This document shows positions 32,050-45,558 of a stretch of DNA of 64,000 bases, one piece after another. Position 1 is the first letter of the stretch. Each line of letters begins with the position of its first letter. The notes below the pieces were generated by a model. That model was not told where the DNA came from, did no database searches, and saw nothing but the letters and a program-made list of their open reading frames with translations. Source of the DNA: a bacterium (lineage in GTDB: Bacteria; Chloroflexota; Dormibacteria; Aeolococcales; Bog-877); contig JAKATL010000002.1 in assembly GCA_021827985.1 (NCBI GenBank), forward strand, positions 846-64,845, given 5' to 3'. The position numbers were made by a program, and so were the translations under genes.

Positions 32050-32074
32050 CCGGCCTGGTGCCCCAGCCCGCCCT

Positions 32075-32530: not shown

Positions 32531-32706
32531 GCCAAGACTCTACCGCCCACCGCCTCTCCGGCGCCGCCCTCCTCCACCCTGAGGGCGGGCGCGCGTGAAC
32601 CCCGGGGGGTACCGGGTGATTCCCTGCTGTAGGGCGTGCTGAGGCCGAACCTACGCTGGGATCACCCGATCAAGAGAGCGGCGCCGGAGCGCCGAGGAGG
32701 TGACCC

Positions 32707-32964
32707 ATGATGGCTATCGAGCAGTTGACGGCCCTGGAGGCCCAGAAGACGGTCGATGCGCGGGGAACCTCCTGCCCCGGTCCCATCCTGGCGGCCAAGA
32801 AGGGGATCGTCGAGGTCAAGGTCGGCGAGGTGATGGCGGTGCTCTCCACCGACTCCGGAACCAAGAAGGACCTTCCGGCCTGGGCGGCCAAGATGGGACA
32901 CGAGTTCCTTGGGGTAGTGGACGAGCAGGGCTACTTCAAGTGCTTCGTGAGGAGGATGAAGTAA
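32707..32964 (+). CDS. tusA: TusA-family sulfur carrier
   Basis: VDARGTSCPGPIL; GAGGAGG RBS; 85 aa. Confidence 0.92.
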   Translation: MMAIEQLTALEAQKTVDARGTSCPGPILAAKKGIVEVKVGEVMAVLSTDSGTKKDLPAWAAKMGHEFLGVVDEQGYFKCFVRRMK

Positions 32965-32970
32965 CCGGCC

Positions 32971-33414
32971 ATGGCAACCACCATGGCGCCGCCGGCCCCC
33001 ACGGCGGGAACCACCTTCGGCCCCAAGATCCTGGTGTTCTCCACCAATAACATCTCGGATCCGGGGATCGACCTGGCGGGCAGCTCGCATCTGCACTACT
33101 CCCCCCGGGCGATGACGATCGCGGTTCCCTGCAGCAGCGGGATCGCCCCGGAGTGGATCGCCTACGCCTTCGACCAGGGGTTTGATGGGGTCTTCATCGC
33201 CTCCGACGGCGAGGAGTGCAGCTACCTCACCGACTGCTCGGAGCGGTCGGCCAAGTTGTTCGAGAGAGCGCAGGCGATGATGGCGGAGAAGGGGTACGCC
33301 CCGGAGCGCCTCAAGATGGCGGCCATCTGCTCGGTCTGCGCCGAGCCCTTCGTGAAGTACATGCACGAGTTCGAAGCCCAGCTGCGGGAGCTGGGCCCGG
33401 TCGGGGTGGCATAG
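32971..33414 (+). CDS. MvhD/FlpD-like iron-sulfur subunit (variant)
   Basis: PKILVF..DLAG...YSP, VPCSSG, AFDQGFDGVFI, ERL; Cys in ECSYLTDC and ICSVC. Confidence 0.85.
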   Translation: MATTMAPPAPTAGTTFGPKILVFSTNNISDPGIDLAGSSHLHYSPRAMTIAVPCSSGIAPEWIAYAFDQGFDGVFIASDGEECSYLTDCSERSAKLFERAQAMMAEKGYAPERLKMAAICSVCAEPFVKYMHEFEAQLRELGPVGVA

Positions 33415-33416
33415 CC

Positions 33417-36116
33417 ATGGACTACGACGTCCTGGTGATTGGAAGCGGCATCGGGGGGATGGAGTCCGCCCTCAAGCTCGGGGACATGGGCTATCGGGTC
33501 CTGGTGGTCGAGAAGGAGGCCTCGGTGGGGGGGAAGATGATCCTCCTCAGCAAGGTGTTCCCCACCCTGGACTGCGCCAGCTGCATCTCCACGCCCAAGA
33601 TGGCGGCGACCATCCACCACCCCAACATCACCGTCCGCACCTATGCGGAGGTGGAGAGGATCCAGCGCCACCCGGATGGCACCTTCTCGGTGTCGATCCG
33701 CCAGAACCCACGCTTTGTCGATGAGGCCGCCTGCACCGGCTGCCAGCTCTGTGAGCAGGCCTGCACGGTGGCCGTCCCCGACCAGTTCAATGCCGACCTG
33801 GTGTCCAGGCGGGCCGCGTACATCCCCTTCCCTCAGGCCGTGCCCAAGAAGGCGGTGGTCGAAAGGCCGGGTACGTCGCCCTGCACCTTCGATTGCCCGG
33901 CCGGCATCAAGGCGCATGGGTACGTTTCCCTGGCGCGGAGTGGCGAATACGAGAAGGCCTTCAACCTGGTCCTGGAGAGCACTCCCCTGGTGGGTAGCCT
34001 TGGGCGGGCCTGCTTCGCACCCTGTGAGGATGGCTGCTCGCGCGGATCGCTCGAGGGCCCCGTGCCGATCCGCCGGATCAAGCGTTTCGTTGCCGACGCC
34101 CACTACCAGTCCGAGTTCCCGTTGGGAGTCGAGGCCGGCTCGACCACCGGGAAGCGGGTGGCGATAGTGGGCTCCGGACCGGCCGGCCTCACCGCGGCCT
34201 GGCAGCTGCGCCTGCTGGGACACGAGGTGAAGATCTACGAGGCGGGGCCGGTGGCGGGAGGAGCCCTCGGCCTCACCATCCCGAACTACCGGCTCCCGAG
34301 CGAGGTGGTGGCGGACGACGTGGGCAACGTCACCGCGATCGGAGTTGAGATCGAGCTCAATCACCGGGTGACCGATCTGGGTGAGCTCACGGACCAGGGC
34401 TTTGACGCCGTCCTCGTGGCGACCGGAACGCCGCGCTCGGGACGACTCGGAGTGGACGGGGAGGCCCTGCCCCAGGTGGTTCCGTCCCTGGACTTCCTTG
34501 AGGCCAGCAAGCTGTGTCGGGGGATGGAGGTCCGGGGGCAGCGGGTGGTGGTCGTGGGTGGTGGCAACGTCGCCATCGACGCGGCCCGCTCGGCTCGTCG
34601 ACTGGGGGCCCTGGCCGTGACCGAGGTGTGCCTAGAGACCCGCGCGGAGATGCCGGCCTTCGACTGGGAGGTCGATGAGGCTCTGGCCGAGGGGGTGCAT
34701 CTGGAGGACGGCTGGGGAATCGCCAGGGTCCTAGGCCACGACCGGGTGGAGGGGATCGAGCTCAAACGCTGCACCGCGGTATTCGACGCCCAGGGCCGCT
34801 TCCACCCCGCCTATGACGAGGGCGAGCGCCAGAGCATCGCCTGCGACCTGGTGGTGGTGGCGATCGGGATGGGGCCGGACACCGAATCCTTCGCCCCCCT
34901 GCTCGACCGCCGGGGAAACGGGACTCTGGCAGTTGATCCGGGCACCCTGCAGTCTCGGGTCCCCAAGATCTTCGCCTGCGGGGACGTGGTTGACGGCGCC
35001 ACCATGATCACGACCGCGGTTGGCCAGGGACGCCGCGCCGCCCACATGATCGACCGCTTCCTCAACTCCCAGGAGTTTGACCCGGAGGAGTTCAATCTGC
35101 TCCTGCCCCGGGTCGAGGCCCAGGATGTGCTGCGGCGGCAGAAGACGCACAGCCGGAAGGATGCCCTGGGGTCGGGCAAGGAGCTGGTCCTGGATCCCCG
35201 CGACTTCCACGAGATCGAGGCTCCCCTGAGTGAGGCCGAGGTGCACTACAGCGCCGGTCGCTGCCTGGACTGTGGGGTGTGCTCCGAGTGCCACGAGTGC
35301 GTGAACGTCTGCCCGGCCGATGCCATCCATCTGGACATGCGACCGGAGAAGGTGGAGACGGAAGTGGCGGCGGTGGTGGTCTCCACCGGCTTCAAGCTGT
35401 TCCCGGCGGACCTCAAGCCCCAGTACGGGTTCGGTCGCTTCAAGAATGTCATCACCGGGATGCAGATGGACCGGCTGCTGGCTCCGACCCGGCCCTTCAA
35501 CACCGTGCTCAGGCCCGGTGATGGAAAGGTCCCGGAGCGGATCGCCTACGTGATGTGCACCGGCTCGCGGGACCAGACAGTGGGCAACCCACTCTGCTCC
35601 CGGATCTGCTGCATGTATTCCATCAAGCAGAACCAGCTCATCATGGGAGCCCTTCCCCTGGCTGACGTCACCGTGTTCACCATTGACGTGCGCACCGCCG
35701 GCAAGGGATATGACGAGTTCTACGTCCAGGCCGAGGCGATGGGAACCACCTTCATCAAGGGCCGGATCGCCGAGATCCGGGAGCTGGACAACGGCGACCT
35801 GGTCCTCCGCTACGAGGACATCGAGCACGGTGGCGAGATCCGGGAGGCCGAGTTCGACCTGGTGGTCCTGGCGGTGGGCGTGCAGCCCAACCTGGACACC
35901 CGCCAGCTGTTCGGCGAGGGCGAGCTCCAGCACGACCCCTACTACTACGTGGAGGAGGTGGACGAGGACCTCAACCCCGGGCAGACCAGCATCGAGGGGG
36001 TGTTCGTCGCCGGCGCGGCGTCCGGGGCCAAGGACATACCCGAGTCGATCCTCCACGCCGGGGCGGCCGTGGCCCAGGCCGCGGCCCACGTCGAGGCCCT
36101 GAGGGTGAGGTCATGA
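33417..36116 (+). CDS. HdrA-like flavoprotein with inserted GltD-type NAD(P)H oxidoreductase domain (HdrL-like)
   Basis: VIGSGIGG, KVFPTLDCASC, CTGCQLCEQAC; insert PCTFDCPAG...GSGPAG...GGGNVAID; return via CSECHECVNVCP; CTGSRD..CSRICCMYSIKQ. Confidence 0.9.
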   Translation: MDYDVLVIGSGIGGMESALKLGDMGYRVLVVEKEASVGGKMILLSKVFPTLDCASCISTPKMAATIHHPNITVRTYAEVERIQRHPDGTFSVSIRQNPRFVDEAACTGCQLCEQACTVAVPDQFNADLVSRRAAYIPFPQAVPKKAVVERPGTSPCTFDCPAGIKAHGYVSLARSGEYEKAFNLVLESTPLVGSLGRACFAPCEDGCSRGSLEGPVPIRRIKRFVADAHYQSEFPLGVEAGSTTGKRVAIVGSGPAGLTAAWQLRLLGHEVKIYEAGPVAGGALGLTIPNYRLPSEVVADDVGNVTAIGVEIELNHRVTDLGELTDQGFDAVLVATGTPRSGRLGVDGEALPQVVPSLDFLEASKLCRGMEVRGQRVVVVGGGNVAIDAARSARRLGALAVTEVCLETRAEMPAFDWEVDEALAEGVHLEDGWGIARVLGHDRVEGIELKRCTAVFDAQGRFHPAYDEGERQSIACDLVVVAIGMGPDTESFAPLLDRRGNGTLAVDPGTLQSRVPKIFACGDVVDGATMITTAVGQGRRAAHMIDRFLNSQEFDPEEFNLLLPRVEAQDVLRRQKTHSRKDALGSGKELVLDPRDFHEIEAPLSEAEVHYSAGRCLDCGVCSECHECVNVCPADAIHLDMRPEKVETEVAAVVVSTGFKLFPADLKPQYGFGRFKNVITGMQMDRLLAPTRPFNTVLRPGDGKVPERIAYVMCTGSRDQTVGNPLCSRICCMYSIKQNQLIMGALPLADVTVFTIDVRTAGKGYDEFYVQAEAMGTTFIKGRIAEIRELDNGDLVLRYEDIEHGGEIREAEFDLVVLAVGVQPNLDTRQLFGEGELQHDPYYYVEEVDEDLNPGQTSIEGVFVAGAASGAKDIPESILHAGAAVAQAAAHVEALRVRS

Positions 36117-37843
36117 GCGAGCGCAAGATCGGCGTCTACGTCTGCCAGTGCGGCGGCAACATCTCCGACTACGTGGACGTGGAGCGGGTCCGCCAGGCCG
36201 TGGCCGAAGACCCCGACGTGGTGGTGGCCCGAACCGCGATGTTCACCTGCTCAGACGCCACCCAGGACGAGATCGCCGACGACATCAAGCTCGATGACCT
36301 GGACGGACTGGTGGTCGCCTCCTGCTCCCCCAAGCTCCACACCTTCACCTTCCGCGGAGTGGCCCGCCGCGCCGGCCTCAACCCCTACCGCTACACGCAG
36401 GTGAACCTGCGCGAGCAGGACTCCTGGGCCCACACCGACGATCGCCTAGGCGCGACCGAGAAGGCGATTCGCCTGGTGCGAGCCGGGATCGCCCGCACCC
36501 GTCTGCTCGAGCCGCTCGACCCGACCGTGGTGGAGACCGTTCCCCGGGCGCTGGTCATCGGTGCCGGGATCGCGGGGCTGCGAGCCGCGATCGGGCTGGC
36601 GGACATAGGCCTTGGGGTGGTCCTCATCGAGCGCGAGGCGGAGGTGGGGGGGCATGTGCGGGAGCTGGGGACCATGTATCCGCACGACCGCCAGGGGCAG
36701 GAGTTGATCTCGGAGCTCCTGGGTGAGGTCCGGCGCCGGGAGGGCATCGCGCTCTTCACCAACGCCGAACTGGTGCGCAAGGGCGGCACCTTCGGGAATT
36801 ACGAGGTGGACATCCGGACCCGCGGCGACTCCAACATGACCCGCCGCTTCGAGGTGGGCTCGATCATCGTCGCCACGGGATTCGACAGCTATCTCCCGGA
36901 AGAGGGGGAGTACGGCTACGGCATCCCCGGTGTCCTGACCCTCCCGGAGTTCAAGAAGCTGGTGGATGCCAGCGAAGGCCCGCTGGTCTACGGGGACCGT
37001 CCGGTCCGCTCGGTCGCCTACATCTACTGCGTCGGGAGCCGCCAGGGCGAGAGCGGACCGCACCAGTACTGCTCGCGCTTCTGCTGCACCTCGGCGGTGC
37101 ACACCGACCTGGAGCTCCGGGCCAAGGCCCCCAAGGTCCACCAGTACCACCTCTACCGGGACATGCGCACCTATGGACGCTACGAGCTCCTCTACAACGA
37201 TTCCCGGGAGAAGGGCTCCGCCTACCTTAAGTTCGCACCCGACACCCCTCCTGAGGTTCAGCGCCGTGGGGACGGCCAGCTGGAGGTAAGGGTCCATGAC
37301 CAGCTCGCCAGCCAGGAGGAGGTCAACCTGGACGTGGACCTGGTGGTCCTGGTGACCGGGATGGTGCCCCGCTCGAACCAGGAGCTGATCCAAAGGCTCA
37401 AGCTGCCCGTGGGCCGAGACGGTTTCTTCAACGAGATCCACCCCAAGCTCCGACCGGTGGAGACAGTGGTGGACGGGGTGGCCATCTGCGGCGCGTGCCA
37501 GTTCCCCAAGACGGCGGGGGAGAGCGTGGCCTCCGGGCTGGCGGCGGTCTCCTGGAGCGCCGCCATGCTCAAGCAGGGGAGGGCCGAGCTGGATCCCCAG
37601 GTGGCGACCGTGGATCCGGACCTCTGCACCTTCTGCGGGGTCTGCATGGAGGCCTGCCCGTACGGCGCCATCGGGCAGCAGGAGCTGGGCGGGAGCCGCC
37701 AGGTGGCGGTCATCGACCCGGCCACCTGCAAGGGCTGCGGCGGCTGCGCCCCGCTCTGTCCGGAGCACGCCATCAACGTACTCGGATACACCGGTAGGGA
37801 GGTGGAGGCGATGATCGAGAGCCTGGCCGCGGGGGTCGCCTGA
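36113..37843 (+). CDS. HdrA-family heterodisulfide reductase subunit A-like protein
   Basis: YVCQCGGNI, FTCS, ASCSPKLH, NLREQDSWAH, IGAGIAG, YCVGSR..YCSRFCC, HPKLRP, C-terminal 2x[4Fe-4S]. Confidence 0.92.
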   Translation: MSERKIGVYVCQCGGNISDYVDVERVRQAVAEDPDVVVARTAMFTCSDATQDEIADDIKLDDLDGLVVASCSPKLHTFTFRGVARRAGLNPYRYTQVNLREQDSWAHTDDRLGATEKAIRLVRAGIARTRLLEPLDPTVVETVPRALVIGAGIAGLRAAIGLADIGLGVVLIEREAEVGGHVRELGTMYPHDRQGQELISELLGEVRRREGIALFTNAELVRKGGTFGNYEVDIRTRGDSNMTRRFEVGSIIVATGFDSYLPEEGEYGYGIPGVLTLPEFKKLVDASEGPLVYGDRPVRSVAYIYCVGSRQGESGPHQYCSRFCCTSAVHTDLELRAKAPKVHQYHLYRDMRTYGRYELLYNDSREKGSAYLKFAPDTPPEVQRRGDGQLEVRVHDQLASQEEVNLDVDLVVLVTGMVPRSNQELIQRLKLPVGRDGFFNEIHPKLRPVETVVDGVAICGACQFPKTAGESVASGLAAVSWSAAMLKQGRAELDPQVATVDPDLCTFCGVCMEACPYGAIGQQELGGSRQVAVIDPATCKGCGGCAPLCPEHAINVLGYTGREVEAMIESLAAGVA

Positions 37844-37844
37844 G

Positions 37845-38093
37845 ATGGTCGTTGAGAGCCGCGACCTGCGCGAGGTGATCCGAGAGGAGCCGCTTCGGCG
37901 CCGCGAGATCCTGAGGGCGGTGGCCGACGGTCCACGCACCGTGCCGGAGATCGCCGGAATGATCGGCTGCCCCACCCACGAGGTCATGTACTGGGTGATG
38001 GGGATGCGCAAGTACGGGTACCTCGCCGAGAGCTCCGAGGCCGATGATGATGGGCTCTTCCACTACCGGGCGCTGGAGCGGCTTGCGCCATGA
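37845..38093 (+). CDS. Small winged-helix protein
   Basis: REILRAVADGPRTVPEIAGMIG..HEVMYWVMGMRKYG; translationally coupled within the operon. Confidence 0.75.
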   Translation: MVVESRDLREVIREEPLRRREILRAVADGPRTVPEIAGMIGCPTHEVMYWVMGMRKYGYLAESSEADDDGLFHYRALERLAP

Positions 38094-38404
38094 CCGCCAC
38101 GCTCCAGCCCGACCTGGCGGAGAGGGTGGGGATGGACCCCGCCTTCAATCCCTCGGCCTGCATGAACTGCGGCATCTGCACCGCCATCTGCCCCCTTGGG
38201 CTGCGCCATCTTCCCCGCGAGGTGTTCGCCTACGTGGTCCTGGGGATGGAGGAGGAGGTGCTCCAGCATCAGGAGGAGGTGTTCTCCTGCCTGCTCTGCA
38301 AGCTCTGTGAGGTGAGCTGCCCGGCGGGCGTGCACATCACCGAGAACGTGCGGGCGCTCCGGCACTACTTCGACCGCAACGTTTTCCGCCTACAGGGGAG
38401 GTGA
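38090..38404 (+). CDS. HdrC-like 4Fe-4S dicluster protein
   Basis: CMNCGICTAICP and CLLCKLCEVSCP. Confidence 0.88.
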   Translation: MTATLQPDLAERVGMDPAFNPSACMNCGICTAICPLGLRHLPREVFAYVVLGMEEEVLQHQEEVFSCLLCKLCEVSCPAGVHITENVRALRHYFDRNVFRLQGR

Positions 38405-38407
38405 GGG

Positions 38408-39394
38408 ATGCCCCTGGCCACCTCCGACACCATCGCGATCCTGGCCGACAACCTGCGGCTGCGCAAGTCGGTGCTTCCCATCCCCGCCGCCAATGCCATC
38501 CGCTGGACGGAGGGGCTGCACCTGCGTCGGGGCGGGGACACCGTCCTCTACACCGGGCAGATGTACCAGCTGATCCCCTACATCGAGCAGCTGGTGGCCG
38601 CGGAGGAGCGGCTGGGGGACTCCTTCCTGGCCGGCTTCACCGGATTTGGTCGCCAGGTGAACCGGGTCCTGAACCTCGCCGGGTTCATGGCCCACCCCAG
38701 CTCTGCGGAGCGGTCGGTGTACGACCGGATCCCCCACAACGTGGCCCTGCTCTTGCGTCGAGCCGGGGTCGACTTCGGGTCCCTGTTCGAGGATGACCTC
38801 TACTCGGGGGCGCTCATCTACGACCTCGGGGTGGACGAGGTCCTGGCCGCCCACGCCCGCACCGTGTACGAGGTCTTCCAGAAGTACGAGGTGAAGGAGG
38901 TCATCACCATCGACCCCCACACCACCAACATGCTGCGCTCGGTCTACCCCACGTTCATTCCCGGTTATGAGCTCAAGGTGCGCAGCTACCTGGAGGTGCT
39001 GGCGGAGCGCGGCTTCGGACCCACGCGCAGGCTGGCCGGAGAGGTGGCCATCCACGACTCGTGCGTCTTCGCCCGCTACGAGGGGGTGGTGGACGCCCCC
39101 CGCCAGCTCCTGGACCAAGCCGGGCTCACGGTGCGCGAGCCGGCCCACAGCGGCATCATGACCTGGTGCTGCGGCGGACCGGCCGAGTCCCTCTTCCCCA
39201 GGCGGGCGGCTGAGCAGGCGGCCCGGCGGGTCGGCGAGCTGCGGGCGGTGGCGGGCCGGGCGGTCACCATGTGCCCGCTTTGCTTCGTCAATCTGGAGAA
39301 GGCAGCCGAAGACGTGATCGCCATCGAGGACATCTCCGACTACCTGTTGCGGGCCTGCGAGGGCCCGGAAGGAGAGTCAGATGGACAGCTCTAA
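38408..39394 (+). CDS. CCG-domain (HdrB/HdrD/GlpC-like) Fe-S protein
   Basis: C-terminal HDSC...WCCGG...TMCPLC; N-terminal CCG repeat degenerate (YSGA, ITIDPHT). Confidence 0.85.
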   Translation: MPLATSDTIAILADNLRLRKSVLPIPAANAIRWTEGLHLRRGGDTVLYTGQMYQLIPYIEQLVAAEERLGDSFLAGFTGFGRQVNRVLNLAGFMAHPSSAERSVYDRIPHNVALLLRRAGVDFGSLFEDDLYSGALIYDLGVDEVLAAHARTVYEVFQKYEVKEVITIDPHTTNMLRSVYPTFIPGYELKVRSYLEVLAERGFGPTRRLAGEVAIHDSCVFARYEGVVDAPRQLLDQAGLTVREPAHSGIMTWCCGGPAESLFPRRAAEQAARRVGELRAVAGRAVTMCPLCFVNLEKAAEDVIAIEDISDYLLRACEGPEGESDGQL

Positions 39395-39857
39395 GAAGAC
39401 CCTCATCGTGTTCAGCGGAGATCTGGACCGGGCCATCGCCGCCTTCATCATCGCCACCGGAGCCGCTGCCATGGGCGATGAGGTGACCATGTTCTTCACC
39501 TTCTGGGGGCTCAACATTCTGCGCAAGAGCTCGGCACCGCACCACCACAAGGCCCTGCTCCAGGCGATGTTCGGGGCCATGATGCCCCGGGGCACCGCCC
39601 GGCTCCGGCTCTCGCAGATGAACTTCCTGGGTCTGGGTCCGCGCCTGATGCGCCGGGTGATGCGCCAGCAGAACGTCATGTCCCTGGAGGAGCTGATGGC
39701 CAGCGCGCGCGAGCAGGGCGTGAAGATGATCGCCTGCAAGATGTCCATGGACGTGCTCGGCCTGTCCGAGGATGAGCTCGTCGACGGTCTGGACTACGTC
39801 GGGGTGGCCAGCTACCTGGCCGAGGCTGACCAAGCCTCGGTGAACCTTTTCGTCTGA
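39381..39857 (+). CDS. DsrE2/DsrE-DsrF-DrsH-like sulfurtransferase
   Basis: VFSGDLD, IIATGAAAMG, FFTFWGL, IACKMSMD, VGVASYL. Confidence 0.9.
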   Translation: MDSSKKTLIVFSGDLDRAIAAFIIATGAAAMGDEVTMFFTFWGLNILRKSSAPHHHKALLQAMFGAMMPRGTARLRLSQMNFLGLGPRLMRRVMRQQNVMSLEELMASAREQGVKMIACKMSMDVLGLSEDELVDGLDYVGVASYLAEADQASVNLFV

Positions 39858-39870
39858 TGGAGTTGGGGGG

Positions 39871-40290
39871 ATGAAGATGGCCAAGATGGTTGTCGGGCTG
39901 GCGAGCGGCAGCGAGGAGACGCTGCTGGTGGCCTCCACCGTGATCGGAGGAGCGGTGGCTCTGGACCAGCGGGTTGACCTGTACCTTCTCCTGGGCGGGG
40001 CCCGAGCCTTCCGCCGGGACGTGGCCACTAGTGAAAGCCCCACCTACGACCACCCGGAACTCCGGGCCGAGATGGAAGCGGGGATTGCCAAGCACAAGAT
40101 CCCGCTCCCCATGGCTCAGCTGCGCAACCTGAAGGCGCAGGGCGACCTGCACATCCACGCCTGCGCCACCGCCGGCAAGATCTGGGGCGCGGAGCAGCTC
40201 TCCGACTTCAGCGACCTCGTTGACGACATCGTGGGCGTCGGCGAGTACGTGATCGCCTGCGCGGAAGCCGACGCGGTCCAGACGCTCTGA
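39871..40290 (+). CDS. DsrE-family protein
   Basis: DsrE-like fold pattern with HIHACATA and VDDIVGVGEY. Confidence 0.75.
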   Translation: MKMAKMVVGLASGSEETLLVASTVIGGAVALDQRVDLYLLLGGARAFRRDVATSESPTYDHPELRAEMEAGIAKHKIPLPMAQLRNLKAQGDLHIHACATAGKIWGAEQLSDFSDLVDDIVGVGEYVIACAEADAVQTL

Positions 40291-40384
40291 CGAAACCGGG
40301 CGGCGGGACCATCTCGGTGCCGCGCCTCGGCTCGCCGTAAGGGTGGCGAGCAGGGCACGCCAGCGGCTGGCGCCCGAACCGGGA

Positions 40385-40678
40385 TCAGAGCTGGAGCGAC
40401 TTCGCGGCCAAAAACTCCTCGATCCCGTACCGGCCGAATTCCCGACCATACCCCGACTGGCGGACGCCTCCGAAGGGAGCCTCGGTGCTGAATGCCCCGC
40501 CGTTCACCTCAACGGTCCCCGCCCGCAGGCGTTGGGCCACGGCCAGAGCTCGCTGCTGGTCCGCTGACCAGACCGCCGCGGCCAGCCCGTAGGGCGTCCC
40601 GTTGGCGATCTCCACAGCATGGTCGTCGCCATCATCACCGATGACGCACAGCACCGGGCCGAAGATCTCCTCCTGGGC
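40385..40678 (-). pseudogene. Displaced 3' fragment of aldehyde dehydrogenase (97 aa)
   Basis: AQEEIFGPV...KSLQL, 92/97 aa identical by manual alignment to the C-terminus of the ALDH at 45559-46995; no start; abuts TnpB-like DNA. Confidence 0.9.
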
Positions 40679-40679
40679 G

Positions 40680-41650
40680 TAGGGGGACTCACCCGGTACC
40701 GCTTCCAGGCTGAAGTTCGCTCCTCGTACCGCCAGGCAGAGTGGCTGGCCCAGGTCGGGGCTCACCGGGCGGTCGCCTACACCATCTCCTGCAACCCTGC
40801 CCATGACCGGTTCTACCTCGATGCCAGTTTCACCCCGGCATCCCCTCTTAGGGTCGCGGCTTACCAGGATCTGCTCTCCGACCCGGCCGCGCGCACCCTG
40901 GCGGTGGACCACAACCGTGGCTTCCTCGCCCCCGCCCTGCTCGACCGCTTCGGCAACCCGGTGGGCTGGCTGCCCCACATCGCACTGGTGACCGAGGACC
41001 GGTCCGCCTGGACCAGGGACGGGCACCTGCGCCAGGCGATCACCGACCTTCTGGACCTGGCCGAGGCGGGAGGCGCCAGGTCCATCACCATTGAGGACCT
41101 CGGCTTCTCGGAGATGCGCTCGACCGGCCGGGAGCAACACGGCTCCCGGCGCTGGGTCCGCAAGGTGGTCTCGGGGATGCCGACCGGCGAGTTCTCGGAT
41201 CGATTGGTGGCGATGGCCTCCAGGCGGGGCATCGCGGTGGTTGGAGTCCCCGCCGCTCACTCCTCGATCTGGGGCAGGCAGCACTGGCTGGCTCCCCTCT
41301 GGGCACAGCATCAGCAGGTATCCGGGCACACGGCCACGGCCGTGGTGCTCGGCAGAAGGGCACTCGGGCACTCGGCCCGGCGCCGACCACCGGCAAGTCC
41401 AGGTGTGACCACATCCGACCGGAGGATCGAAGCGGCGGGGCAACCCGTTGCTGTGGAGAGCTACCACGTGGGAAGCGTCGGCCCGGCGGGTACCGGGTGC
41501 CAGGGCCAGTCCAAGCTCCGAAGGCGCCAGGGCCACCACCCACGTGGCGCAAGACCCGAAACGGCGACGGCTTGCTTGGCAGAGTCCAGGTCGGGAAGGA
41601 CCGCTCGTCCCGACCGGGTGTCGCTTATGGACACTCAGCAGGGACGGTAG
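40680..41650 (+). mobile_element. 5'-truncated IS200/IS605-associated TnpB-like remnant
   Basis: RFYLDASF, RuvC-I TLAVDHN, Ruv[35 protein letters not shown], low-complexity tail ending CAGGGACGGTAG; N-terminus and transposase absent. Confidence 0.75.
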
Positions 41651-41943
41651 GGAAGAGCTTGCCCCCAGCTCCTCTCGCTCGCGGTCGCAGCCGGGACGCC
41701 GCTGCGACCGTAGCCCCAGCCCGGTCCCACTCCCGGCGGCAGCCGCCGCTGCGGGCGGCGCATCCCACCTGGAGTTGCTGCGGCTGGCGGCCGCTGTCGC
41801 CGCCCACTGACGGTCATGGCCCGCGTGGTTCCTTCCATGCCCGGTGGGGGAAATCGCCCTGTGCCGCGGCCGGTCCCAGCTCCAGTATGCAAGACATGCA
41901 GATGCAAGCCTTGCCGATGCATGGTAGGCACGACGGCGGGGAG

Positions 41944-42597
41944 ATGCTGCGGGCGGCGCAGGTTGGGCAGCTGCTCTCCATCGACCGCTCGACGGTCTAT
42001 CGGATGGCGGAGCGCGGGGGCTTGCCGGCGCTCAAGATCGGCCGCCAGTGGAGGTTCCCCTCTCGCGAAATCGGCCTCCTGCTGAGCGCCCGCACCGGGC
42101 GCGGTTCCGAGGTGGTTGCCTCGGGGCGAGCGGCTATGACCGCGGCCACCCGGGCGGCGCTGCCGATGATCGAGCTGGCCGCGCAGCTGCTGGGCGTCAT
42201 GGTCGTTGCCACGGACATGGACGGCGAGCCGGTAGCAGAGGTCCTCAACCCCTGCCCCTGGTTCAGCGAGCATTCTGATGACCCCGAGCTGCTGGACAGC
42301 TGCCTCGCCGACTGGAAGCAGCTGGCCGACGACCCCTGCCTCGACGTCAGCTTCCGCACCGGGCCGCTGGGGCTGGACTGCGCCAGGTCGTTCGTCCGCC
42401 AGGGCAGCCTCCTGGTGGGCATGCTGCTGGCGGGCGGCGTCGCCGCCGCGGAAACCGAGGACCGTGCCGTCTACCGGCTCACGTCGGAGGGCCGGGGACG
42501 GGTGCTCACCTCTCTTCCACTCATCGCGGGCAGGGTGTCCAGCCTGGTGGCGCCAGCACCCGCAGCGGATTCCAACACGAGGTATATGACCAAATGA
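41944..42597 (+). CDS. Excisionase-type HTH (HTH_17) regulator with PocR-like sensory domain
   Basis: [39 protein letters not shown]; C-terminal TDMDGEP..NPCPWF...GPLGLDCA; overlaps the sqr start. Start uncertain. Confidence 0.75.
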
Positions 42598-43835
42598 AGC
42601 GACTTGTGATCCTCGGCGGTGGCACCGCCGGGACCATGGCGGCCAACCGCCTGCGGCGGCGCCTGGACCCGGGCGACTGGAAGATCAGCGTGGTGGATAA
42701 GAGCGAGATCCACTACTACCAGCCCGGGCACCTGTTCGTTCCTTTCGGCATCTACCGGCCCCAGGACGTGGTCAAGCCGCGCCGGCGCTTCATCCCTGAC
42801 GGCGTCGACCTGATCTTCGGGGAGATCGCCCAGGTGGTCCCCGCGGAGAATCGCGTCCTACTCACGGACGGCCAGGAGCTGCCCTACGACTACCTGATCA
42901 TCGCCACCGGCACCTCCCCGCGCCCGGACCAGACTCCCGGGATGGCGGAGACCGAGTGGCGCAAGAGCGTGCACGAGTTCTACACCCTGGAGGGTGCCAC
43001 GGCGCTGGGGGAGCGGCTGGCGGACTGGGACGGCGGCCGCATGCTGGTGCAGATCGTCGACATGCCTATCAAGTGCCCCGTGGCTCCCCTGGAATTCACC
43101 TTCCTCGCCGACGCCTTCTTCGCGGAGCGGGGTATCCGCGACCGGGTGGACCTGACCCTGGTGACGCCGCTGGAGGGAGCCTTCACCAAGCCCATCGCCT
43201 CCAAGCATCTCGGGTCCATCCTCGGCGAACGTGGGGTCAGGATCGAGGGGGACTTTGTGGTCGAGCGCATCGACCCGGACCGCAAGACGGTGGTCTCCTA
43301 CGACGGGCGAGAGATCCCCTTCGACCTGCTGGTGACGGTACCCCTCCACATGGGTGCCGACTACCTGGCGGCGTCTGGCCTGGGCGACGAACTCAACTAC
43401 GTCCCGGTGGACAAGTGCACCCTGCTGTCCAAGGCCTATGCCAACATCTTCGCCATCGGCGACGCTTCGGACATCCCGACCTCCAAGGCTGGGTCTGTGG
43501 CCCACTTCTCCCTGGAGCTGTTCGAGGACAACTTCGTGAGCCATGTGCGCGGCCGGGCCATGACCCGCCCCTTCGACGGGCACGCCAACTGCTTCATCGA
43601 GTCCGGGCACGGCAAGGGGCTGTTGATCGATTTCAACTACGACACAGAGCCGCTGCCCGGAAAGTACCCCCTGCCCGGCATTGGCCCCTTCTCCCTGCTT
43701 CGGGAGACCGAAGCCAACCACTGGGGAAAGATGATGTTTCGCTGGGTCTACTGGAACCTCCTGCTACCCGGCAAGCCGATGCCCCTCGAGCCGCTGATGT
43801 CGATGGCCGGAAAAGAGGTCGAGGTGCTGCCGTGA
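42594..43835 (+). CDS. sqr: Sulfide:quinone oxidoreductase-like flavoprotein
   Basis: LGGGTAG, HYYQPG, YDYLIIATG, IKCPVAPLEF, AIGDA, SKAGSVAH, FDGHANCFIESG, HWGK. Confidence 0.85.
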   Translation: MKRLVILGGGTAGTMAANRLRRRLDPGDWKISVVDKSEIHYYQPGHLFVPFGIYRPQDVVKPRRRFIPDGVDLIFGEIAQVVPAENRVLLTDGQELPYDYLIIATGTSPRPDQTPGMAETEWRKSVHEFYTLEGATALGERLADWDGGRMLVQIVDMPIKCPVAPLEFTFLADAFFAERGIRDRVDLTLVTPLEGAFTKPIASKHLGSILGERGVRIEGDFVVERIDPDRKTVVSYDGREIPFDLLVTVPLHMGADYLAASGLGDELNYVPVDKCTLLSKAYANIFAIGDASDIPTSKAGSVAHFSLELFEDNFVSHVRGRAMTRPFDGHANCFIESGHGKGLLIDFNYDTEPLPGKYPLPGIGPFSLLRETEANHWGKMMFRWVYWNLLLPGKPMPLEPLMSMAGKEVEVLP

Positions 43836-44521
43836 CTGCCCTCACAGAGGCCCCGGCCGAAGAGCGGCTGGCCAGGATCGAGGCGCTTCTGGCGGAGGTC
43901 CGGGAGGAGTTGCAGAGTCGGGCGGTGGCCCGCGAGCGCTGGAGCGAGTTCGCTGATGACCTCGCTCCCCTGGCGGGGGAGGCGGTCTCCCTGCTGACTC
44001 GCCATCTCGACGCCGACGCGCGCGACTTCCCGGCGGCGGCGAGCCTCGCGCACAGCCTGGTCAGGGATGCGGACACTCTCGCGGCCGGGATCGATGCGCT
44101 TCCCACGCTCATCGGCTTCACCGAAGAAGTAGGCCCCCTGGGGACCGCCGCCATGCAGAGCGTCAATCGCCGGCTCCAGCAACTGGACGATCGGGGGTAT
44201 TTCGCCTTCATTCGGCAGACCGCGGCGATCGTGGACAACGTGGTCACCTCGTTCAGCGAGGAGGACGTCAAGCTGCTGGGCGAGAACATCGTGCTCATCC
44301 TGGCCACGGTCAAGGAGATGACCCAGCCAGAGATCATGACCCTGCTGGGGCGGGCGGCGCGTTCCCTGCAGGACGGGGACTCGGTCACGGCGCCGGAAAC
44401 GCCCTCCTCCCTGGCTCTGCTGCGACAGCTTCGAGACCCCATGGTCCGCCGGGGGCTGGCCCGGGTCCTGGCCACCCTGCGCGCCGTGGGGGCGGAGTCC
44501 CCACCCGCTGACCGCCGATGA
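43832..44521 (+). CDS. DUF1641-domain protein
   Basis: GTG overlapping the sqr stop; C-terminal SLALLRQLRDPMVRRGL. Confidence 0.8.
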   Translation: MTALTEAPAEERLARIEALLAEVREELQSRAVARERWSEFADDLAPLAGEAVSLLTRHLDADARDFPAAASLAHSLVRDADTLAAGIDALPTLIGFTEEVGPLGTAAMQSVNRRLQQLDDRGYFAFIRQTAAIVDNVVTSFSEEDVKLLGENIVLILATVKEMTQPEIMTLLGRAARSLQDGDSVTAPETPSSLALLRQLRDPMVRRGLARVLATLRAVGAESPPADRR

Positions 44522-44542
44522 CACAGATTGGAGGTAGTTGAC

Positions 44543-44857
44543 ATGGCCCTGGCCACTATCGCGGGCACCCAGGTCCACGTGGACGACGAGGGGTTCCTGA
44601 CCGAGTACGACGAATGGACCGAGGGGCTGGCCCAGGTGCTGGCCGCCCAAATCGCGATCGAGCTGACAGAGCCGCACTGGAAGGCCATTCACTTCCTGCG
44701 CGAGGACTTCAAGCAGCACGGCGAGACGGCGACCATCCGCCGCATCACCACCGTCGGAGGAATTCCCACTAAGGACCTCTTCACCCTGTTCCCGAAGCAA
44801 CCGGCCAAGAAGATGGCGTACATCGCGGGTCTGCCCAAGCCGCGCGGTTGCGTGTGA
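44543..44857 (+). CDS. TusE/DsrC/DsvC-family sulfur relay protein
   Basis: VDDEGFL, LTEPHWKAIHFLR, LFPKQPAK, IAGLPKPRGCV; single C-terminal Cys. Confidence 0.92.
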   Translation: MALATIAGTQVHVDDEGFLTEYDEWTEGLAQVLAAQIAIELTEPHWKAIHFLREDFKQHGETATIRRITTVGGIPTKDLFTLFPKQPAKKMAYIAGLPKPRGCV

Positions 44858-44880
44858 CCGCAGACCAGGAGGGATCAATC

Positions 44881-45390
44881 GTGACGACCGAAGTCGCTCC
44901 GGCCCCCGTTCCCAAGTTCGACCAAGGTGACGTCGGGCGCAGGCTGGCCATCATCTGCTCCAAGGGCAACTTGGACATGGCCTATCCCGGGCTGGTGCTT
45001 GCCAATGCTGCACTCGGCGAGGGTGTAGAGGTGCACCTGTTCTTTACCTTCTGGGGCTTCGACATGATCACTAAGAAGACCATGGCCCACCTCAAGTTCA
45101 CTCCTCTCGGGAACACCGCCACCCACATGCCCCAGGGCTTGGGAGGGATCCCGGGCATGACGGCCATGGCGACCAACATGCTGAGAAAGCAGATCGCCAG
45201 CATCGGAGTGCCGGATGTGCCGGAATTCCTGGACCAGATCAGTGCGTCCGGTGGGCACCTGTGGGCATGCCGGATGTCCGCCGACATGATGCATGTCGGC
45301 AAGGAGGACCTGCGTGACGACGTCGAAGCCATCATCAACGCCTCAGACTTCATCGAGATGACCGCGGGGGCGCAGCTACTGTTCATCTGA
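44881..45390 (+). CDS. DsrE2-like sulfurtransferase
   Basis: IICSKGNLDMAYP, FFTFWG, WACRMSADM. Confidence 0.88.
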   Translation: MTTEVAPAPVPKFDQGDVGRRLAIICSKGNLDMAYPGLVLANAALGEGVEVHLFFTFWGFDMITKKTMAHLKFTPLGNTATHMPQGLGGIPGMTAMATNMLRKQIASIGVPDVPEFLDQISASGGHLWACRMSADMMHVGKEDLRDDVEAIINASDFIEMTAGAQLLFI

Positions 45391-45558
45391 CCTGAAAGAG
45401 TGGATGGAGGGGGAGCAGGCTGGAGGGAGGGGTGGGGGCCGGTGAGCGCGGCCGAGGGCTCGGACACGGGCCACTGATGAGGTTCTGGGGCTTGCGGTCC
45501 CCGAACAGGATGTGGGGGGCCTACCGATGCCTGTCGGTCGGAGTCGCCCGACCGGGAA

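What the first reader, a model, noticed from the sequence alone, without database searches (positions are those of the whole stretch)
32707..40290. Hydrogenase-free Hdr-like complex wrapped in sulfur-carrier genes: candidate NAD(P)H-linked persulfide oxidoreductase
Seen: nine tightly packed co-oriented genes tusA-mvhD-hdrA(GltD insert)-hdrA-wHTH-hdrC-CCG-dsrE2-dsrE, with no mvhAG, fdh, flx, aprAB, dsrAB or lipoate-binding genes in the window. Known: methanogen HdrABC-MvhD takes electrons from a hydrogenase or formate dehydrogenase; sulfur-oxidiser sHdr is hdrC1B1A-hyp-C2B2 with LbpA; QmoABC pairs with AprAB. This architecture matches none of them. Inference: the GltD insert exchanges electrons with NAD(P)H, and the CCG subunit reduces or oxidises persulfide carried on TusA/DsrE, i.e. 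a distinct cytoplasmic sulfane-sulfur redox system, possibly fed by the neighbouring sqr operon.
Basis: partly seen in the sequence, partly recalled or inferred. Interest (0 to 1): 0.82.

Follow-up and report, generated by a model that had tools for sequence, protein, structure and literature searches.

The report
TusA-linked Hdr-like redox complex operon
Nine tightly packed genes encode an uncharacterised iron-sulfur flavoenzyme complex, related to the heterodisulfide reductase of methanogens but with no hydrogenase, that probably links NAD(P)H to sulfur carried on the small protein TusA and recurs in many soil and mine bacteria.

Summary
Nine co-oriented, near-abutting genes at 32707-40290 encode TusA, MvhD, an HdrA with an NfnB/GltD-like insert, a second HdrA, a small winged-helix protein, HdrC, an HdrB-like CCG protein and two DsrE-type carriers.

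The core tusA-mvhD-hdrA(NfnB)-hdrA-wHTH-hdrC-CCG is syntenic in 59 of 63 assessable loci. These come from Actinomycetota, Chloroflexota, Dormibacterota and Bacillota MAGs. tusA is present in 63 of 63 loci and a DsrE-type gene is adjacent in 46 of 57.

The two HdrA paralogs have complementary domain and cysteine losses, which implies an obligate heterodimer. The CCG subunit keeps only one non-cubane cluster motif.

Best reading, inferred and not shown: a hydrogenase-independent, NAD(P)(H)-linked Hdr-like complex that cleaves S-S bonds on TusA-bound sulfur, possibly by electron bifurcation.

The sqr link is not supported as a conserved feature. The sqr segment is a ~5.2-kb insertion absent from the two closest relatives, and only 15 of 50 cluster-bearing genomes hold an SQR homolog.

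The genome carries sat-aprBA-qmoAB, a type II sHdr-like cluster and lbpA on another contig. Each building block is known; I found the combination in no paper. I rate it a new variant of a known kind.

The parts
32707..32964 (+). tusA: sulfur carrier, 85 aa, active-site Cys23 in a CPGP motif. First gene of the operon, with an AGGAGG-like ribosome-binding site just upstream.
   Evidence: PF01206, 78.9 bits. Cys23 is conserved in 65 of 65 sequences. tusA is present upstream of mvhD in 63 of 63 assessable loci. Upstream sequence read.
32971..33414 (+). mvhD-like [2Fe-2S] electron-transfer subunit, 147 aa.
   Evidence: PF02662 FlpD, 101.6 bits. Five Cys are conserved in 62 of 62 sequences. Present in 63 of 63 loci. 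It is one of only two FlpD matches in the genome.
33417..36116 (+). hdrA-L: HdrA thioredoxin-reductase-type flavoprotein, 899 aa. It lacks the N-terminal and C-terminal ferredoxin domains. A near full-length NfnB/GltD module (two [4Fe-4S], FAD, NAD(P)H site) sits inside the inserted ferredoxin domain. It keeps the FPTLDCxxC cysteines.
   Evidence: methanogen HdrA 338-346 bits in two stretches; insert aa 155-630 matches NfnB-type chains, including 4ylf_B at 191 bits. Cys inventory. ATG position. Present in 61 of 64 loci.
36113..37843 (+). hdrA2: second HdrA paralog, 576 aa. It has the N-terminal Cys domain, the flavin domain with its [4Fe-4S] motif and the C-terminal 2x[4Fe-4S] ferredoxin domain. 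It lacks the inserted ferredoxin domain and the Cys197-region cysteines.
   Evidence: Alignment to 5odc_A: aa 1-236 match 1-236 and aa 246-555 match 319-633. Conserved Cys. Present in 67 of 68 loci.
37845..38093 (+). Small winged-helix-like protein, 82 aa, embedded between hdrA2 and hdrC with a 4-nt overlap onto hdrC. No conserved Cys. Whether it is a subunit or a regulator is unknown.
   Evidence: Only weak HTH hits. Its Cys is kept in 5 of 73 sequences. Present in 72 of 73 loci.
38090..38404 (+). hdrC-like ferredoxin subunit, 104 aa, 2x[4Fe-4S].
   Evidence: TIGR03290 E 2.3e-12; Fer4_17 and Fer4_8. Eight Cys are conserved in 65-66 of 66 sequences. Present in 75 of 75 loci. Fused to the CCG protein in 27 of 120 family representatives.
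38408..39394 (+). HdrB-like CCG protein, 328 aa, the candidate catalytic subunit. It has one intact CX34CCGX33CXXC motif (C219, C254, C255, C289, C292). Its N-terminal half is Cys-free, with invariant Y48-T49-G50, Y132, G134 and D169-P170-H171-T172-T173.
   Evidence: Pfam CCG matches only aa 213-296. The five Cys are conserved in 75 of 75 sequences and there are none in the N-half. Invariant columns. The profile hits HdrB only at E 2.5e-5 and 1.8e-4, over the C-terminal domain; the best PDB hit is 9ojn_A at 4.7e-20.
39381..39857 (+). DsrE2-type sulfur carrier, 158 aa, conserved Cys119.
   Evidence: PF13686, 206 bits. The NCBIfam DsrE2 model gives 92 bits, below its cut-off of 210. Cys119 is conserved in 51 of 51 sequences. 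A DsrE-type gene is adjacent in 46 of 57 loci.
39871..40290 (+). Divergent DsrE-fold protein (DsrE2B-like), 139 aa, conserved Cys98. Found only in the closest relatives and some Bacillota and Actinomycetota loci.
   Evidence: No Pfam hit. hhalign against the DsrE2 family: probability 95.7%, E 9e-9. Profile against PDB: 2qs7_A E 2e-23 and 3pnx_A E 5.7e-6. Cys98 is conserved in 13 of 13 sequences. Present in 12 of the 80 loci.
40371..45844 (.). Context, not part of the conserved unit: a ~5.2-kb inserted segment bracketed by a 300-nt direct repeat. It holds an unknown ORF, an HTH_17 regulator, a type III sqr (42594-43835), a DUF1641 protein, a tusE/dsrC-family gene (44528-44857; terminal Cys only) and a second DsrE2-type gene (44848-45390).
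   Evidence: Gene identities. Repeat 40371-40670 / 45545-45844 at 86% identity. The fragment is an Aldedh C-terminus, 90% identical in protein to the intact gene. In L010 and L011 the aldehyde dehydrogenase gene follows the ninth gene directly.

Best explanation
The nine genes form one operon for a cytoplasmic, hydrogenase-independent Hdr-like iron-sulfur flavoprotein complex, together with its sulfur carriers.

Proposed assembly. HdrA-L and HdrA2 form an obligate heterodimer. HdrA-L carries an NfnB/GltD module and retains the Cys197-region cysteines. [quoted passage not shown] Together they hold one copy of each domain that a methanogen HdrA homodimer holds twice. MvhD ([2Fe-2S]) and HdrC (2x[4Fe-4S]) act as electron wires. 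The HdrB-like subunit holds a single non-cubane [4Fe-4S] site.

Proposed reaction. NAD(P)H is oxidised, or NAD(P)+ reduced, at the NfnB module. Electrons pass through the HdrA flavins and HdrC to the CCG subunit. There an S-S bond on TusA-bound sulfur is cleaved by two electrons, regenerating TusA-SH and releasing sulfide. The substrate could be a persulfide, a polysulfide, or a disulfide or trisulfide with a DsrE2-type carrier. The Cys-free but invariant Asp-Pro-His-Thr-Thr pocket may take the place of the second cluster and handle the leaving sulfide. DsrE2-type proteins load or unload TusA. A third redox partner, ferredoxin or similar, may make the reaction electron-bifurcating. [quoted passage not shown]

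What is shown: gene content, domain and cysteine inventories, and conserved synteny with tusA.

What is inferred: complex formation, the substrate, the direction, and bifurcation.
For: - Gene and domain identities.
- Tight junctions, and no intrinsic terminator-like site on the + strand within 32000-41000.
- Complementary HdrA paralogs. HdrA2 aligns to 5odc_A 1-236 and 319-633, so residues 237-318 (the inserted ferredoxin domain) are missing. HdrA2 keeps N-terminal C11, C13, C46 and C71 in 69 of 69 sequences but has no Cys in the Cys197 region in 0 of 69. HdrA-L has no N-terminal or C-terminal ferredoxin domain but keeps C54 and C57 (FPTLDCxxC) in 57 of 58 (HdrA-L numbering from base 33414). 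PMC9012536 describes the same logic for ANME HdrA pairs and explains the role of Cys197 (passages read).
- NAD(P)H module. Insert aa 155-630 matches NfnB-type chains: T. maritima 4ylf_B at 191 bits, 5jca_L at 168 bits, 9n5u_A at 259 bits. Fer4_20 and Pyr_redox_2 also match.
- One catalytic cluster. Five Cys are conserved in 75 of 75 sequences, and the N-half has no Cys but invariant polar residues. In 120 more distant representatives the five Cys are kept in 101-118 and D169/P170/H171 in 92/112/97.
- TusA link. tusA is in 63 of 63 loci, all six upstream genes in 59 of 63, and a DsrE-type gene is adjacent in 46 of 57. Carrier cysteines are invariant. This genome has three TusA copies, one in each sulfur locus, so the window's copy looks dedicated.
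- Hydrogenase independence. No PF00374 match in the own genome, which is 93.1% complete. No hydrogenase gene family recurred in the flanks of the related loci.
- Ferredoxin-using enzymes exist in the genome: two POR_N proteins.
Against: - There is no biochemical, genetic or expression evidence of any kind.
- By homology with the methanogen enzyme as summarised in PMC9012536, the NfnB module sits on the arm that leads out to ferredoxin. MvhD sits on the input arm but has no encoded partner. NAD(P)H as the simple donor is therefore not the only wiring, and the direction is open.
- The pseudo-CCG reading of the N-terminal half rests on a weak internal alignment (hhalign E 0.008, probability 4.8%).
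- TusA could serve another role, such as cofactor sulfur supply.
- The cluster sits in an organism that also oxidises sulfide (SQR) and probably sulfane sulfur (sHdr-like, AprBA, Sat). A purely reductive persulfide reductase could therefore cycle futilely unless it is regulated.
- The reduction potential of a TusA persulfide is unknown, so bifurcation to ferredoxin may not be feasible.
Confidence: 0.55

Rival explanations
1. The same complex runs in the oxidative or confurcating direction. Thiol-level or sulfane sulfur on TusA/DsrE2 is oxidised at the CCG subunit. Those electrons, alone or together with NAD(P)H electrons, leave through MvhD to an unknown acceptor, or reduce NAD(P)+ with help from reduced ferredoxin. 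It would then be an sHdr-independent oxidative module.
For: - In domain topology the NfnB module lies on the low-potential arm and MvhD on the third arm. The authors of PMC9012536 propose confurcation from NADPH and thiols for the ANME-1 HdrA-NfnB fusions (passages read).
- The host is an aerobe-capable sulfur oxidiser: COX1 at 555 bits, SQR, AprBA and Sat.
- TusA and DsrE carriers are the usual partners of oxidative sHdr (PMC11094781).
Against: - No lipoate-binding protein gene is in the locus and none appeared among the recurring flank families.
- There is only one non-cubane cluster.
- No acceptor module is encoded next to MvhD in any locus.
- Only 2 of 50 cluster-bearing genomes hold an sHdrB1 homolog and 15 of 50 an SQR homolog. 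Most hosts are therefore not evident sulfur oxidisers with these queries.
Confidence: 0.17
2. The CCG subunit acts on something other than TusA-bound sulfur: a low-molecular-weight disulfide or heterodisulfide, or a TusE/DsrC-type protein. TusA and DsrE2 would then be accessory, for example supplying sulfur or playing a regulatory role.
For: - Hdr and DsrK relatives reduce CoM-S-S-CoB or DsrC-bound sulfur (established knowledge).
- A TusE/DsrC-family gene lies 4 kb downstream in the window.
- The window also holds a CysRS-like/glycosyltransferase fusion that could belong to a low-molecular-weight thiol pathway (not followed up).
Against: - tusA is the one carrier present in 63 of 63 loci.
- tusE is near the cluster only in the window (within an insertion), in L050 and, weakly, in L041.
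- The window's TusE-like protein has only the terminal Cys.
- The host phyla are not known to share one low-molecular-weight thiol (general knowledge, not tested).
Confidence: 0.15
3. The cluster is merely an accessory part of the genome's known sulfur systems: the sHdr-like/EtfAB-EMO cluster, or AprBA-QmoAB.
For: The same genome holds sat-aprBA-qmoAB-hdrCB and a type II sHdr-like cluster with two lbpA genes and a tusA on contig C47.
Against: - Those systems are complete on another contig with their own TusA and MvhD domain.
- Only 2 of 50 cluster-bearing genomes hold an sHdrB1 homolog at E<=1e-30.
- Both HdrA paralogs score far higher against methanogen HdrA (338-389 bits) than against sHdrA 6tjr_A (108-132 bits).
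Confidence: 0.04

Closest known systems
Methanogen HdrABC-MvhAGD (for example PDB 5odc, 8rvu)
   Same: - HdrA-type flavoprotein with the CxGSRD...CC cluster motif, plus HdrC, a CCG subunit and MvhD.
- Both HdrA paralogs score 338-389 bits against these chains.
   Different: - No MvhAG hydrogenase in the locus or the genome.
- HdrA is split into two complementary paralogs, one with an NfnB insert.
- The CCG subunit has one Cys motif instead of two, and its profile matches HdrB only at E 2.5e-5 and 1.8e-4.
- TusA and DsrE2 genes stand where CoM/CoB chemistry would be expected.
HdrA with NfnB insertion and heterodimeric HdrA paralogs of ANME archaea (HdrA9-11, HdrA3/4; PMC9012536), and HdrL of Desulfobacterium autotrophicum (mentioned in PMC12142623)
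   Same: - A ~450-500-aa NfnB-like insert interrupts the inserted ferredoxin domain.
- The paralogs show complementary loss of the N-terminal domain and of Cys197.
   Different: - Those are archaeal or deltaproteobacterial genes known only from genomics, and are tied to CoM/CoB or sulfate-reduction contexts.
- Here the partners are a one-cluster CCG protein, an embedded winged-helix protein and an invariant tusA, in Terrabacteria MAGs.
- I did not test sequence-level orthology to the ANME or HdrL proteins, because I held no sequences for them.
Sulfur-oxidising sHdr systems, type I (shdrC1B1AHC2B2) and type II (shdrC1B1AHB3-etfAB-emo), with LbpA, TusA and DsrE3 (PMC11094781)
   Same: - A cytoplasmic Hdr-like complex genetically tied to TusA and DsrE-family carriers.
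- sHdrB3 likewise binds only one non-cubane cluster.
   Different: - sHdrA is a short (~350 aa) protein without ferredoxin domains. Both paralogs here are methanogen-type (108-132 bits against 6tjr_A, versus 338-389 bits).
- No lbpA, etfAB or emo in the locus.
- MvhD and an NfnB module are present.
- An sHdr-like cluster exists separately in this genome.
DsrK / HdrD-type CCG proteins, and PDB 9ojn_A 'iron-sulfur-binding reductase'
   Same: - A single catalytic CCG motif acting, in DsrK, on a protein-bound sulfur substrate (DsrC; established knowledge, recalled).
- 9ojn_A is the best PDB match of the CCG profile, at E 4.7e-20.
- Weak NCBIfam hits to DsrK, HmcF and TmcB.
   Different: - Those are membrane-associated or fused proteins that receive electrons from quinol-linked modules.
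- This one is a soluble 328-aa subunit next to HdrC and HdrA.
QmoABC
   Same: Two different HdrA-like flavoproteins plus an MvhD module and an HdrC-like ferredoxin.
   Different: - No membrane QmoC and no aprBA neighbour.
- The genome's qmoAB-like pair sits beside aprBA on contig C47.
NAD(P)H-dependent persulfide/polysulfide reductases (Npsr, CoA persulfide reductase; SudAB/NfnAB-type sulfide dehydrogenase)
   Same: - The proposed net chemistry is the same: NAD(P)H to sulfane sulfur, giving sulfide.
- SudBA is an NfnBA relative reported to reduce polysulfide with NADPH (passage in PMC5736913; Npsr and CoAPR are recalled from memory).
   Different: - Those are one- or two-subunit flavoenzymes that use a Cys or CoA at the active site.
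- They have no HdrA, HdrC or CCG subunits and no dedicated TusA.

Membership tests
Methanogenic HdrABC-MvhAGD | HdrB with two CCG domains, each binding a non-cubane [4Fe-4S] cluster | tested here: not met
   Only one Pfam CCG stretch, aa 213-296. Five conserved Cys, all in the C-terminal half, in 75 of 75 sequences. The profile matches HdrB only over its C-terminal domain, at E 2.5e-5 and 1.8e-4.
Methanogenic HdrABC-MvhAGD | MvhAG [NiFe] hydrogenase (or FdhAB) as electron donor | tested here: not met
   No PF00374 match in the own genome, which is 93.1% complete. Molybdopterin matches lie only on other contigs. No such gene recurs in the flanks of the related loci.
Methanogenic HdrABC-MvhAGD | Four-domain HdrA acting as a homodimer | tested here: not met
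   There are two paralogs with complementary domain loss. HdrA2 lacks 5odc_A residues 237-318. [quoted passage not shown] Cys inventories are.
sHdr (type I / type II) | Short sHdrA, the shdrC1B1AH(C2B2 or B3) gene order, and linked lbpA | tested here: not met
   Scores against sHdrA 6tjr_A are 108-132 bits, versus 338-389 bits against methanogen HdrA. The gene order differs. GCV_H matches lie only on C53, C47 and C78. An sHdrB1 homolog is present in 2 of 50 cluster-bearing genomes.
QmoABC | QmoA, QmoB(MvhD) and membrane QmoC next to aprBA | tested here: not met
   aprA (933 bits) and aprB lie on C47, next to the qmoAB-like genes. There is no apr on C3. The locus has a CCG subunit and no QmoC (qmoC model only E 9e-7 on the HdrC-like protein).
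FlxABCD-HdrABC | flxABCD genes adjacent to hdrABC | tested here: inconclusive
   The locus holds no genes beyond the nine, and MvhD is the only FlxD-like element. Flx families were not searched genome-wide.
HdrA-NfnB insertion class (ANME-1 HdrA9-11 / HdrL-like) | NfnB-like module of ~500 aa inserted in the inserted ferredoxin domain of HdrA | tested here: met
   Fer4 motifs at aa 102-118 and 623-648 flank an insert that matches NfnB-type chains over aa 153-630. The feature is as described in PMC9012536. Orthology to those proteins was not tested.
TusA family | PF01206 fold with a conserved Cys in a CPxP motif | tested here: met
   78.9 bits against a cut-off of 28.6. C23-P24-G25-P26 is invariant in 42 aligned sequences. 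The NCBIfam TusA equivalog is below its cut-off (50.3 against 78), so it is not the E. coli-type orthologue.
DsrE superfamily (DsrE2 / DsrE2B) | DsrE fold with a conserved active-site Cys | tested here: met
   Gene 8: PF13686 at 206 bits, with C119 in 51 of 51 sequences. Gene 9: hhalign probability 95.7% and 2qs7_A at E 2e-23 (named DsrE2B in PMC11094781), with C98 in 13 of 13 sequences.

The most novel reading that the evidence does not exclude
This is the first flavin-based electron-bifurcating enzyme whose high-potential acceptor is a protein persulfide. A heterodimeric HdrA/HdrA-NfnB complex would use TusA-bound sulfane sulfur to pull electrons from NAD(P)H uphill onto ferredoxin. That would give largely aerobic Actinomycetota, Chloroflexota and Dormibacterota a sulfur-driven source of low-potential reductant. 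Where SQR is also present, the two would form a sulfide/sulfane shuttle between the quinone pool and ferredoxin.
Probability: 0.15. Interest if true: 0.85.

Novelty: new variant of a known kind. Interest (0 to 1): 0.6.

Why it matters
Hdr-type complexes are central to methanogenesis, sulfate reduction and sulfur oxidation. In each case a donor module and a thiol/disulfide substrate define the system. This cassette combines known pieces in an arrangement I found in no paper:
- a complementary HdrA heterodimer;
- an NfnB insert;
- MvhD without a hydrogenase;
- a one-cluster CCG subunit;
- an embedded winged-helix protein;
- an invariant TusA.

It is widespread. 123 relatives were confirmed in a scan of 185,579 species genomes, and 205 clusters at 50% identity scored E<=1e-30. 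Most hosts are uncultured soil, peat, mine and hot-spring Terrabacteria.

If the proposed function holds, it would be a new route by which cells handle sulfane sulfur. It would also give a defined protein substrate, TusA persulfide, for studying how a single non-cubane cluster cleaves S-S bonds. If it bifurcates, it would add a new class of bifurcating enzyme in aerobes.

Tried and rejected
No fold or docking test of gene 9, the CCG protein or TusA-CCG binding was possible. Fold search was therefore unused.
- Expression. No RNA holder was listed for the 7.6-kb stretch. Read laying was not used. DNA holders were mine-drainage, tailings and sediment metagenomes, several of them possible sources of this DNA.
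- Rfam scan of 31900-45600 at E<=1: two sub-threshold chance-level matches only.
- Promoter and terminator scan of 32000-41000: 0 promoter-like sites, and 1 terminator-like site on the minus strand. Both counts are no more than the shuffled sequences gave.
- Protein atlas search of the CCG protein returned only generic CCG clusters.
- PF00374 across 50 cluster-bearing genomes gave 40 of 50 with matches, but most were short partial matches. I draw nothing from it.
- Internal N-half versus C-half alignment of the CCG protein is weak (E 0.008, probability 4.8%). It suggests a register but does not prove one.
- The ArsR-type regulator beside the cluster in 23 loci has two conserved Cys. Its cysteines do not sit in the register of HlyU in the printed alignment. 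SqrR and BigR were hit at E 3.8e-10 and 7.8e-8, but their alignments were not printed. A persulfide-sensor role is therefore not claimed. The window's own locus lacks this regulator.
- An apparent CCG-gene-9 fusion in L015 and L016 (long ORFs) was rejected, because the two coding regions are in different frames.
- Literature. Nine full-text searches, plus passages read in PMC6776052, PMC12142623, bioRxiv 10.1101/2021.08.23.457424, PMC11094781, PMC4378227, PMC9012536, PMC5736913, PMC13490349 and PMC6397845. None describes a tusA-mvhD-hdrA(NfnB)-hdrA-hdrC-CCG cluster. The review by Appel et al. 2021 (BBA 1862:148379) is not held and may cover it. Supplementary tables, for example the Hdr or TusA neighbourhood lists of PMC11094781 and PMC9012536, could not be read and may bear on novelty.

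Full report
**Observation.** The stretch 32707-40290 holds nine + strand ORFs with the codon bias of real genes: GC3 0.86-0.93 in a 68-70% GC window. Junctions run from a 14-nt overlap to a 13-nt gap.

Family searches give the following:
- TusA: PF01206, 78.9 bits.
- MvhD/FlpD: 101.6 bits.
- A 899-aa HdrA with an NfnB/GltD-like insert. Its true ATG is at 33417.
- A 576-aa HdrA.
- An 82-aa protein with weak winged-helix matches only.
- An 8-Cys HdrC-like ferredoxin.
- A 328-aa protein with a single CCG domain.
- A PF13686 DsrE2-type protein.
- A 139-aa protein with no Pfam or NCBIfam hit.

That last protein is a DsrE-fold relative. hhalign against the DsrE2 family gives probability 95.7%, E 9e-9. 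Its profile hits PDB 2qs7_A at E 2e-23 and 3pnx_A at E 5.7e-6. PMC11094781 names 2QS7 as a DsrE2B sulfur transferase.

**Anatomy.**

HdrA2 aligns to methanogen HdrA (5odc_A) over residues 1-236 and 319-633. It thus lacks the segment 237-318, the inserted ferredoxin domain. It keeps the N-terminal Cys domain, the flavin domain and the C-terminal 2x[4Fe-4S] domain.

HdrA-L begins directly at the FAD-binding motif and ends where the flavin domain ends. It therefore has neither the N-terminal nor the C-terminal ferredoxin domain. Its inserted ferredoxin domain is interrupted by a near full-length NfnB-type module: aa 153-630, with 4ylf_B at 191 bits and 9n5u_A at 259 bits.

Across the family:
- HdrA-L keeps the two Cys of FPTLDCxxC in 57 of 58 sequences. 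HdrA2 has none there (0 of 69).
- HdrA2 keeps four N-terminal Cys in 69 of 69 sequences.

PMC9012536 (passages) explains the significance. In the methanogen enzyme, the N-terminal cluster of one HdrA is completed by Cys197 of the other. The paper also describes ANME HdrA pairs with this complementary loss, and HdrA paralogs with a ~500-aa NfnB insert. The two genes here therefore most likely form an obligate heterodimer that carries one copy of each HdrA domain.

The CCG subunit has exactly five conserved Cys: C219, C254, C255, C289 and C292, in 75 of 75 sequences. That is one non-cubane cluster motif. Its N-terminal half has no Cys but has invariant Y48-T49-G50, Y132, G134 and D169-P170-H171-T172-T173. 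A weak internal alignment puts Y138-D139 on the CC pair and D169/T172 on the CxxC pair. This suggests a degenerate first CCG domain.

The CCG profile matches HdrB only at E 2.5e-5 and 1.8e-4, and matches 9ojn_A best at 4.7e-20.

**Conservation.** A pattern scan of one genome per species, using the CCG protein, confirmed 123 relatives and kept 80 loci. The record titles name Actinomycetota (Thermoleophilia, Gaiellales, Solirubrobacterales, Acidimicrobiaceae and others), Chloroflexota, Dormibacterota and Bacillota MAGs.

Among loci long enough to judge:

| Gene | Present |
|---|---|
| tusA | 63 of 63 |
| mvhD | 63 of 63 |
| hdrA-L | 61 of 64 |
| hdrA2 | 67 of 68 |
| winged-helix gene | 72 of 73 |
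| hdrC | 75 of 75 |
| all six together | 59 of 63 |

The four incomplete cases each miss hdrA-L, hdrA2 or the small gene at my threshold of 50% coverage by a single alignment.

A DsrE-type gene is adjacent in 46 of 57 loci: 21 downstream, and 25 upstream as dsrE2-tusA-tusA. Gene 9 occurs in only 12 of the 80 loci.

An exhaustive profile search found 205 clusters (50% identity) at E<=1e-30. Of 120 representatives of at least 280 aa, 27 are HdrC-CCG fusions.

**Genome context.** The genome is 2.83 Mb and 93.1% complete.
- It has no NiFe hydrogenase match.
- It has a heme-copper oxidase and two 2-oxoacid:ferredoxin oxidoreductase-type proteins.
- Contig C47 carries sat, aprB, aprA (933 bits), a qmoA/qmoB-like pair, HdrC/B-type fusions, a short HdrA, etfAB, a 664-aa Fer4+CCG protein, two GCV_H/LbpA-type genes and a TusA.
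- That arrangement resembles the type II sHdr layout described in PMC11094781, next to an APS-reductase pathway.
- NIR_SIR matches fall in one 651-aa frame only, so no dsrAB pair was seen.

The organism thus looks like an aerobe-capable sulfur oxidiser. The window's cluster is a separate system with its own TusA.

In 50 other cluster-bearing genomes, an sHdrB1 homolog was found in 2 and an SQR homolog in 15 (these are MAGs and each search used a single query, so the counts are lower bounds).

**The sqr neighbour.** Right after gene 9 lies a C-terminal fragment of an aldehyde dehydrogenase gene. It is 90% identical in protein to the intact gene at 45559-46995. The two ends form a 300-nt direct repeat of 86% identity, spaced 5174 nt apart.

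Between the repeats lie an unknown ORF, an HTH_17 regulator, a type III SQR (625 bits, above its cut-off), a DUF1641 protein, a TusE/DsrC-family protein with only the terminal Cys, and a second DsrE2-type gene.

In the two closest relatives (93-98% identical proteins), the aldehyde dehydrogenase gene follows gene 9 directly. The sqr module is therefore an insertion in this genome.

One distant Gaiellales locus (L050) has the same four genes immediately upstream of tusA. A loose functional affinity is therefore possible, but it is not a conserved feature.

**Mechanism.** The parts shown are one NAD(P)(H) site, three flavin sites, a chain of Fe-S clusters, one non-cubane catalytic cluster and a dedicated Cys-carrier protein.

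The most economical reading is an NAD(P)(H)-linked two-electron cleavage of an S-S bond on TusA-bound sulfur. DsrE2-type proteins would act as relay. One cluster binds the carrier sulfur, and the Asp/His/Thr pocket handles the small leaving group. This parallels the other one-cluster CCG enzymes.

[quoted passage not shown] However, domain topology places the NfnB module on the arm that leads to ferredoxin in methanogens, and leaves MvhD without an encoded partner. Direction and partner remain open.

My odds:
- NAD(P)(H)-linked TusA-sulfur reductase: 0.55.
- Oxidative or confurcating operation: 0.17.
- A non-TusA substrate: 0.15.
- An accessory to sHdr or Qmo: 0.04.

**Comparison and novelty.** The membership tests exclude methanogenic Hdr-Mvh, sHdr and Qmo. 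The HdrA-L architecture belongs to the NfnB-insert class already noted in ANME-1, and resembles HdrL. None of these is biochemically characterised in the passages I read. Nine full-text searches and nine papers read in part gave no description of this cassette. One key review and all supplementary files were out of reach. I rate it a new variant of a known kind.

**Limits.** There are no expression data (no RNA holder was listed), no structure or complex predictions (tools off) and no experiments. Most related genomes are MAGs. Numbering of HdrA-L residues starts at base 33414, one residue before the ATG.

Noticed in passing
G000:C47:164000-183999 (locus L009), plus C47:181362-182628: A second sulfur locus lies on another contig. 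It holds sat, aprB, aprA, a qmoA/qmoB-like pair (qmoB with an MvhD domain), an HdrC/B-type fusion, an HdrB-like protein, a short HdrA, a hypothetical gene, a second HdrC/B fusion, etfB, etfA and a 664-aa Fer4+CCG protein. These are followed by two GCV_H/LbpA-type genes and a tusA. It looks like an APS-reductase pathway joined to a type II sHdr-like system.
   Followed up: partly
window 40371-40670 and 45545-45844: A 300-nt direct repeat (86% identity) is made of the 3' end of an aldehyde dehydrogenase gene. It brackets a ~5.2-kb segment holding an unknown 343-aa ORF, an HTH_17 regulator and sqr-DUF1641-tusE-dsrE2. The segment is absent at this site in the two closest relatives (L010, L011).
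   Followed up: yes
L023:2647-3048 and 24 further ORFs in 23 of the 80 related loci: An ArsR-family regulator with two conserved cysteines (21 of 25 and 23 of 25) sits just upstream of tusA in many Actinomycetota, Dormibacterota and Chloroflexota loci. Its best PDB relatives are HlyU, CadC, SqrR and BigR. It may be a thiol-based sensor. The window's own locus does not have it.
   Followed up: partly
window 3844-5754 (+), with 2322-3896 (+) upstream: A second GltD/NfnB-like protein (636 aa; gltA model 278 bits, below its cut-off) is preceded by an overlapping 524-aa ORF with no Pfam or NCBIfam match.
   Followed up: no
window 16898-19087 (-): A 728-aa protein joins a class I cysteinyl-tRNA-synthetase catalytic domain to a family 2 glycosyltransferase domain. 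It may belong to a low-molecular-weight thiol pathway (MshC-like; this label is recalled, not tested).
   Followed up: no
window 42594-43835 (+): The SQR scores above the cut-off of the NCBIfam model named 'type III sulfide quinone reductase, selenoprotein subtype', yet its frame is open without a stop. I did not look at which residue stands at the selenocysteine position.
   Followed up: no
G000:C54:18243-19898 (-): A molybdopterin oxidoreductase match carries one in-frame TGA within a 1061-aa frame. It may be a selenocysteine enzyme or a broken gene.
   Followed up: no
Representatives P0040, P0059, P0064 and 24 others: 27 of 120 distant members of the CCG-protein family carry an N-terminal 8-Cys HdrC-like extension, so they are HdrC-CCG fusions. 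About a dozen keep Cys at positions of the otherwise Cys-free first domain.
   Followed up: partly
L032:5727-6017 and six similar ORFs in 6 loci in all: A small CsoR/RcnR-like regulator with two Cys lies a few kb from the cluster in a few loci. The family label is judged by eye from the sequence and was not tested.
   Followed up: no
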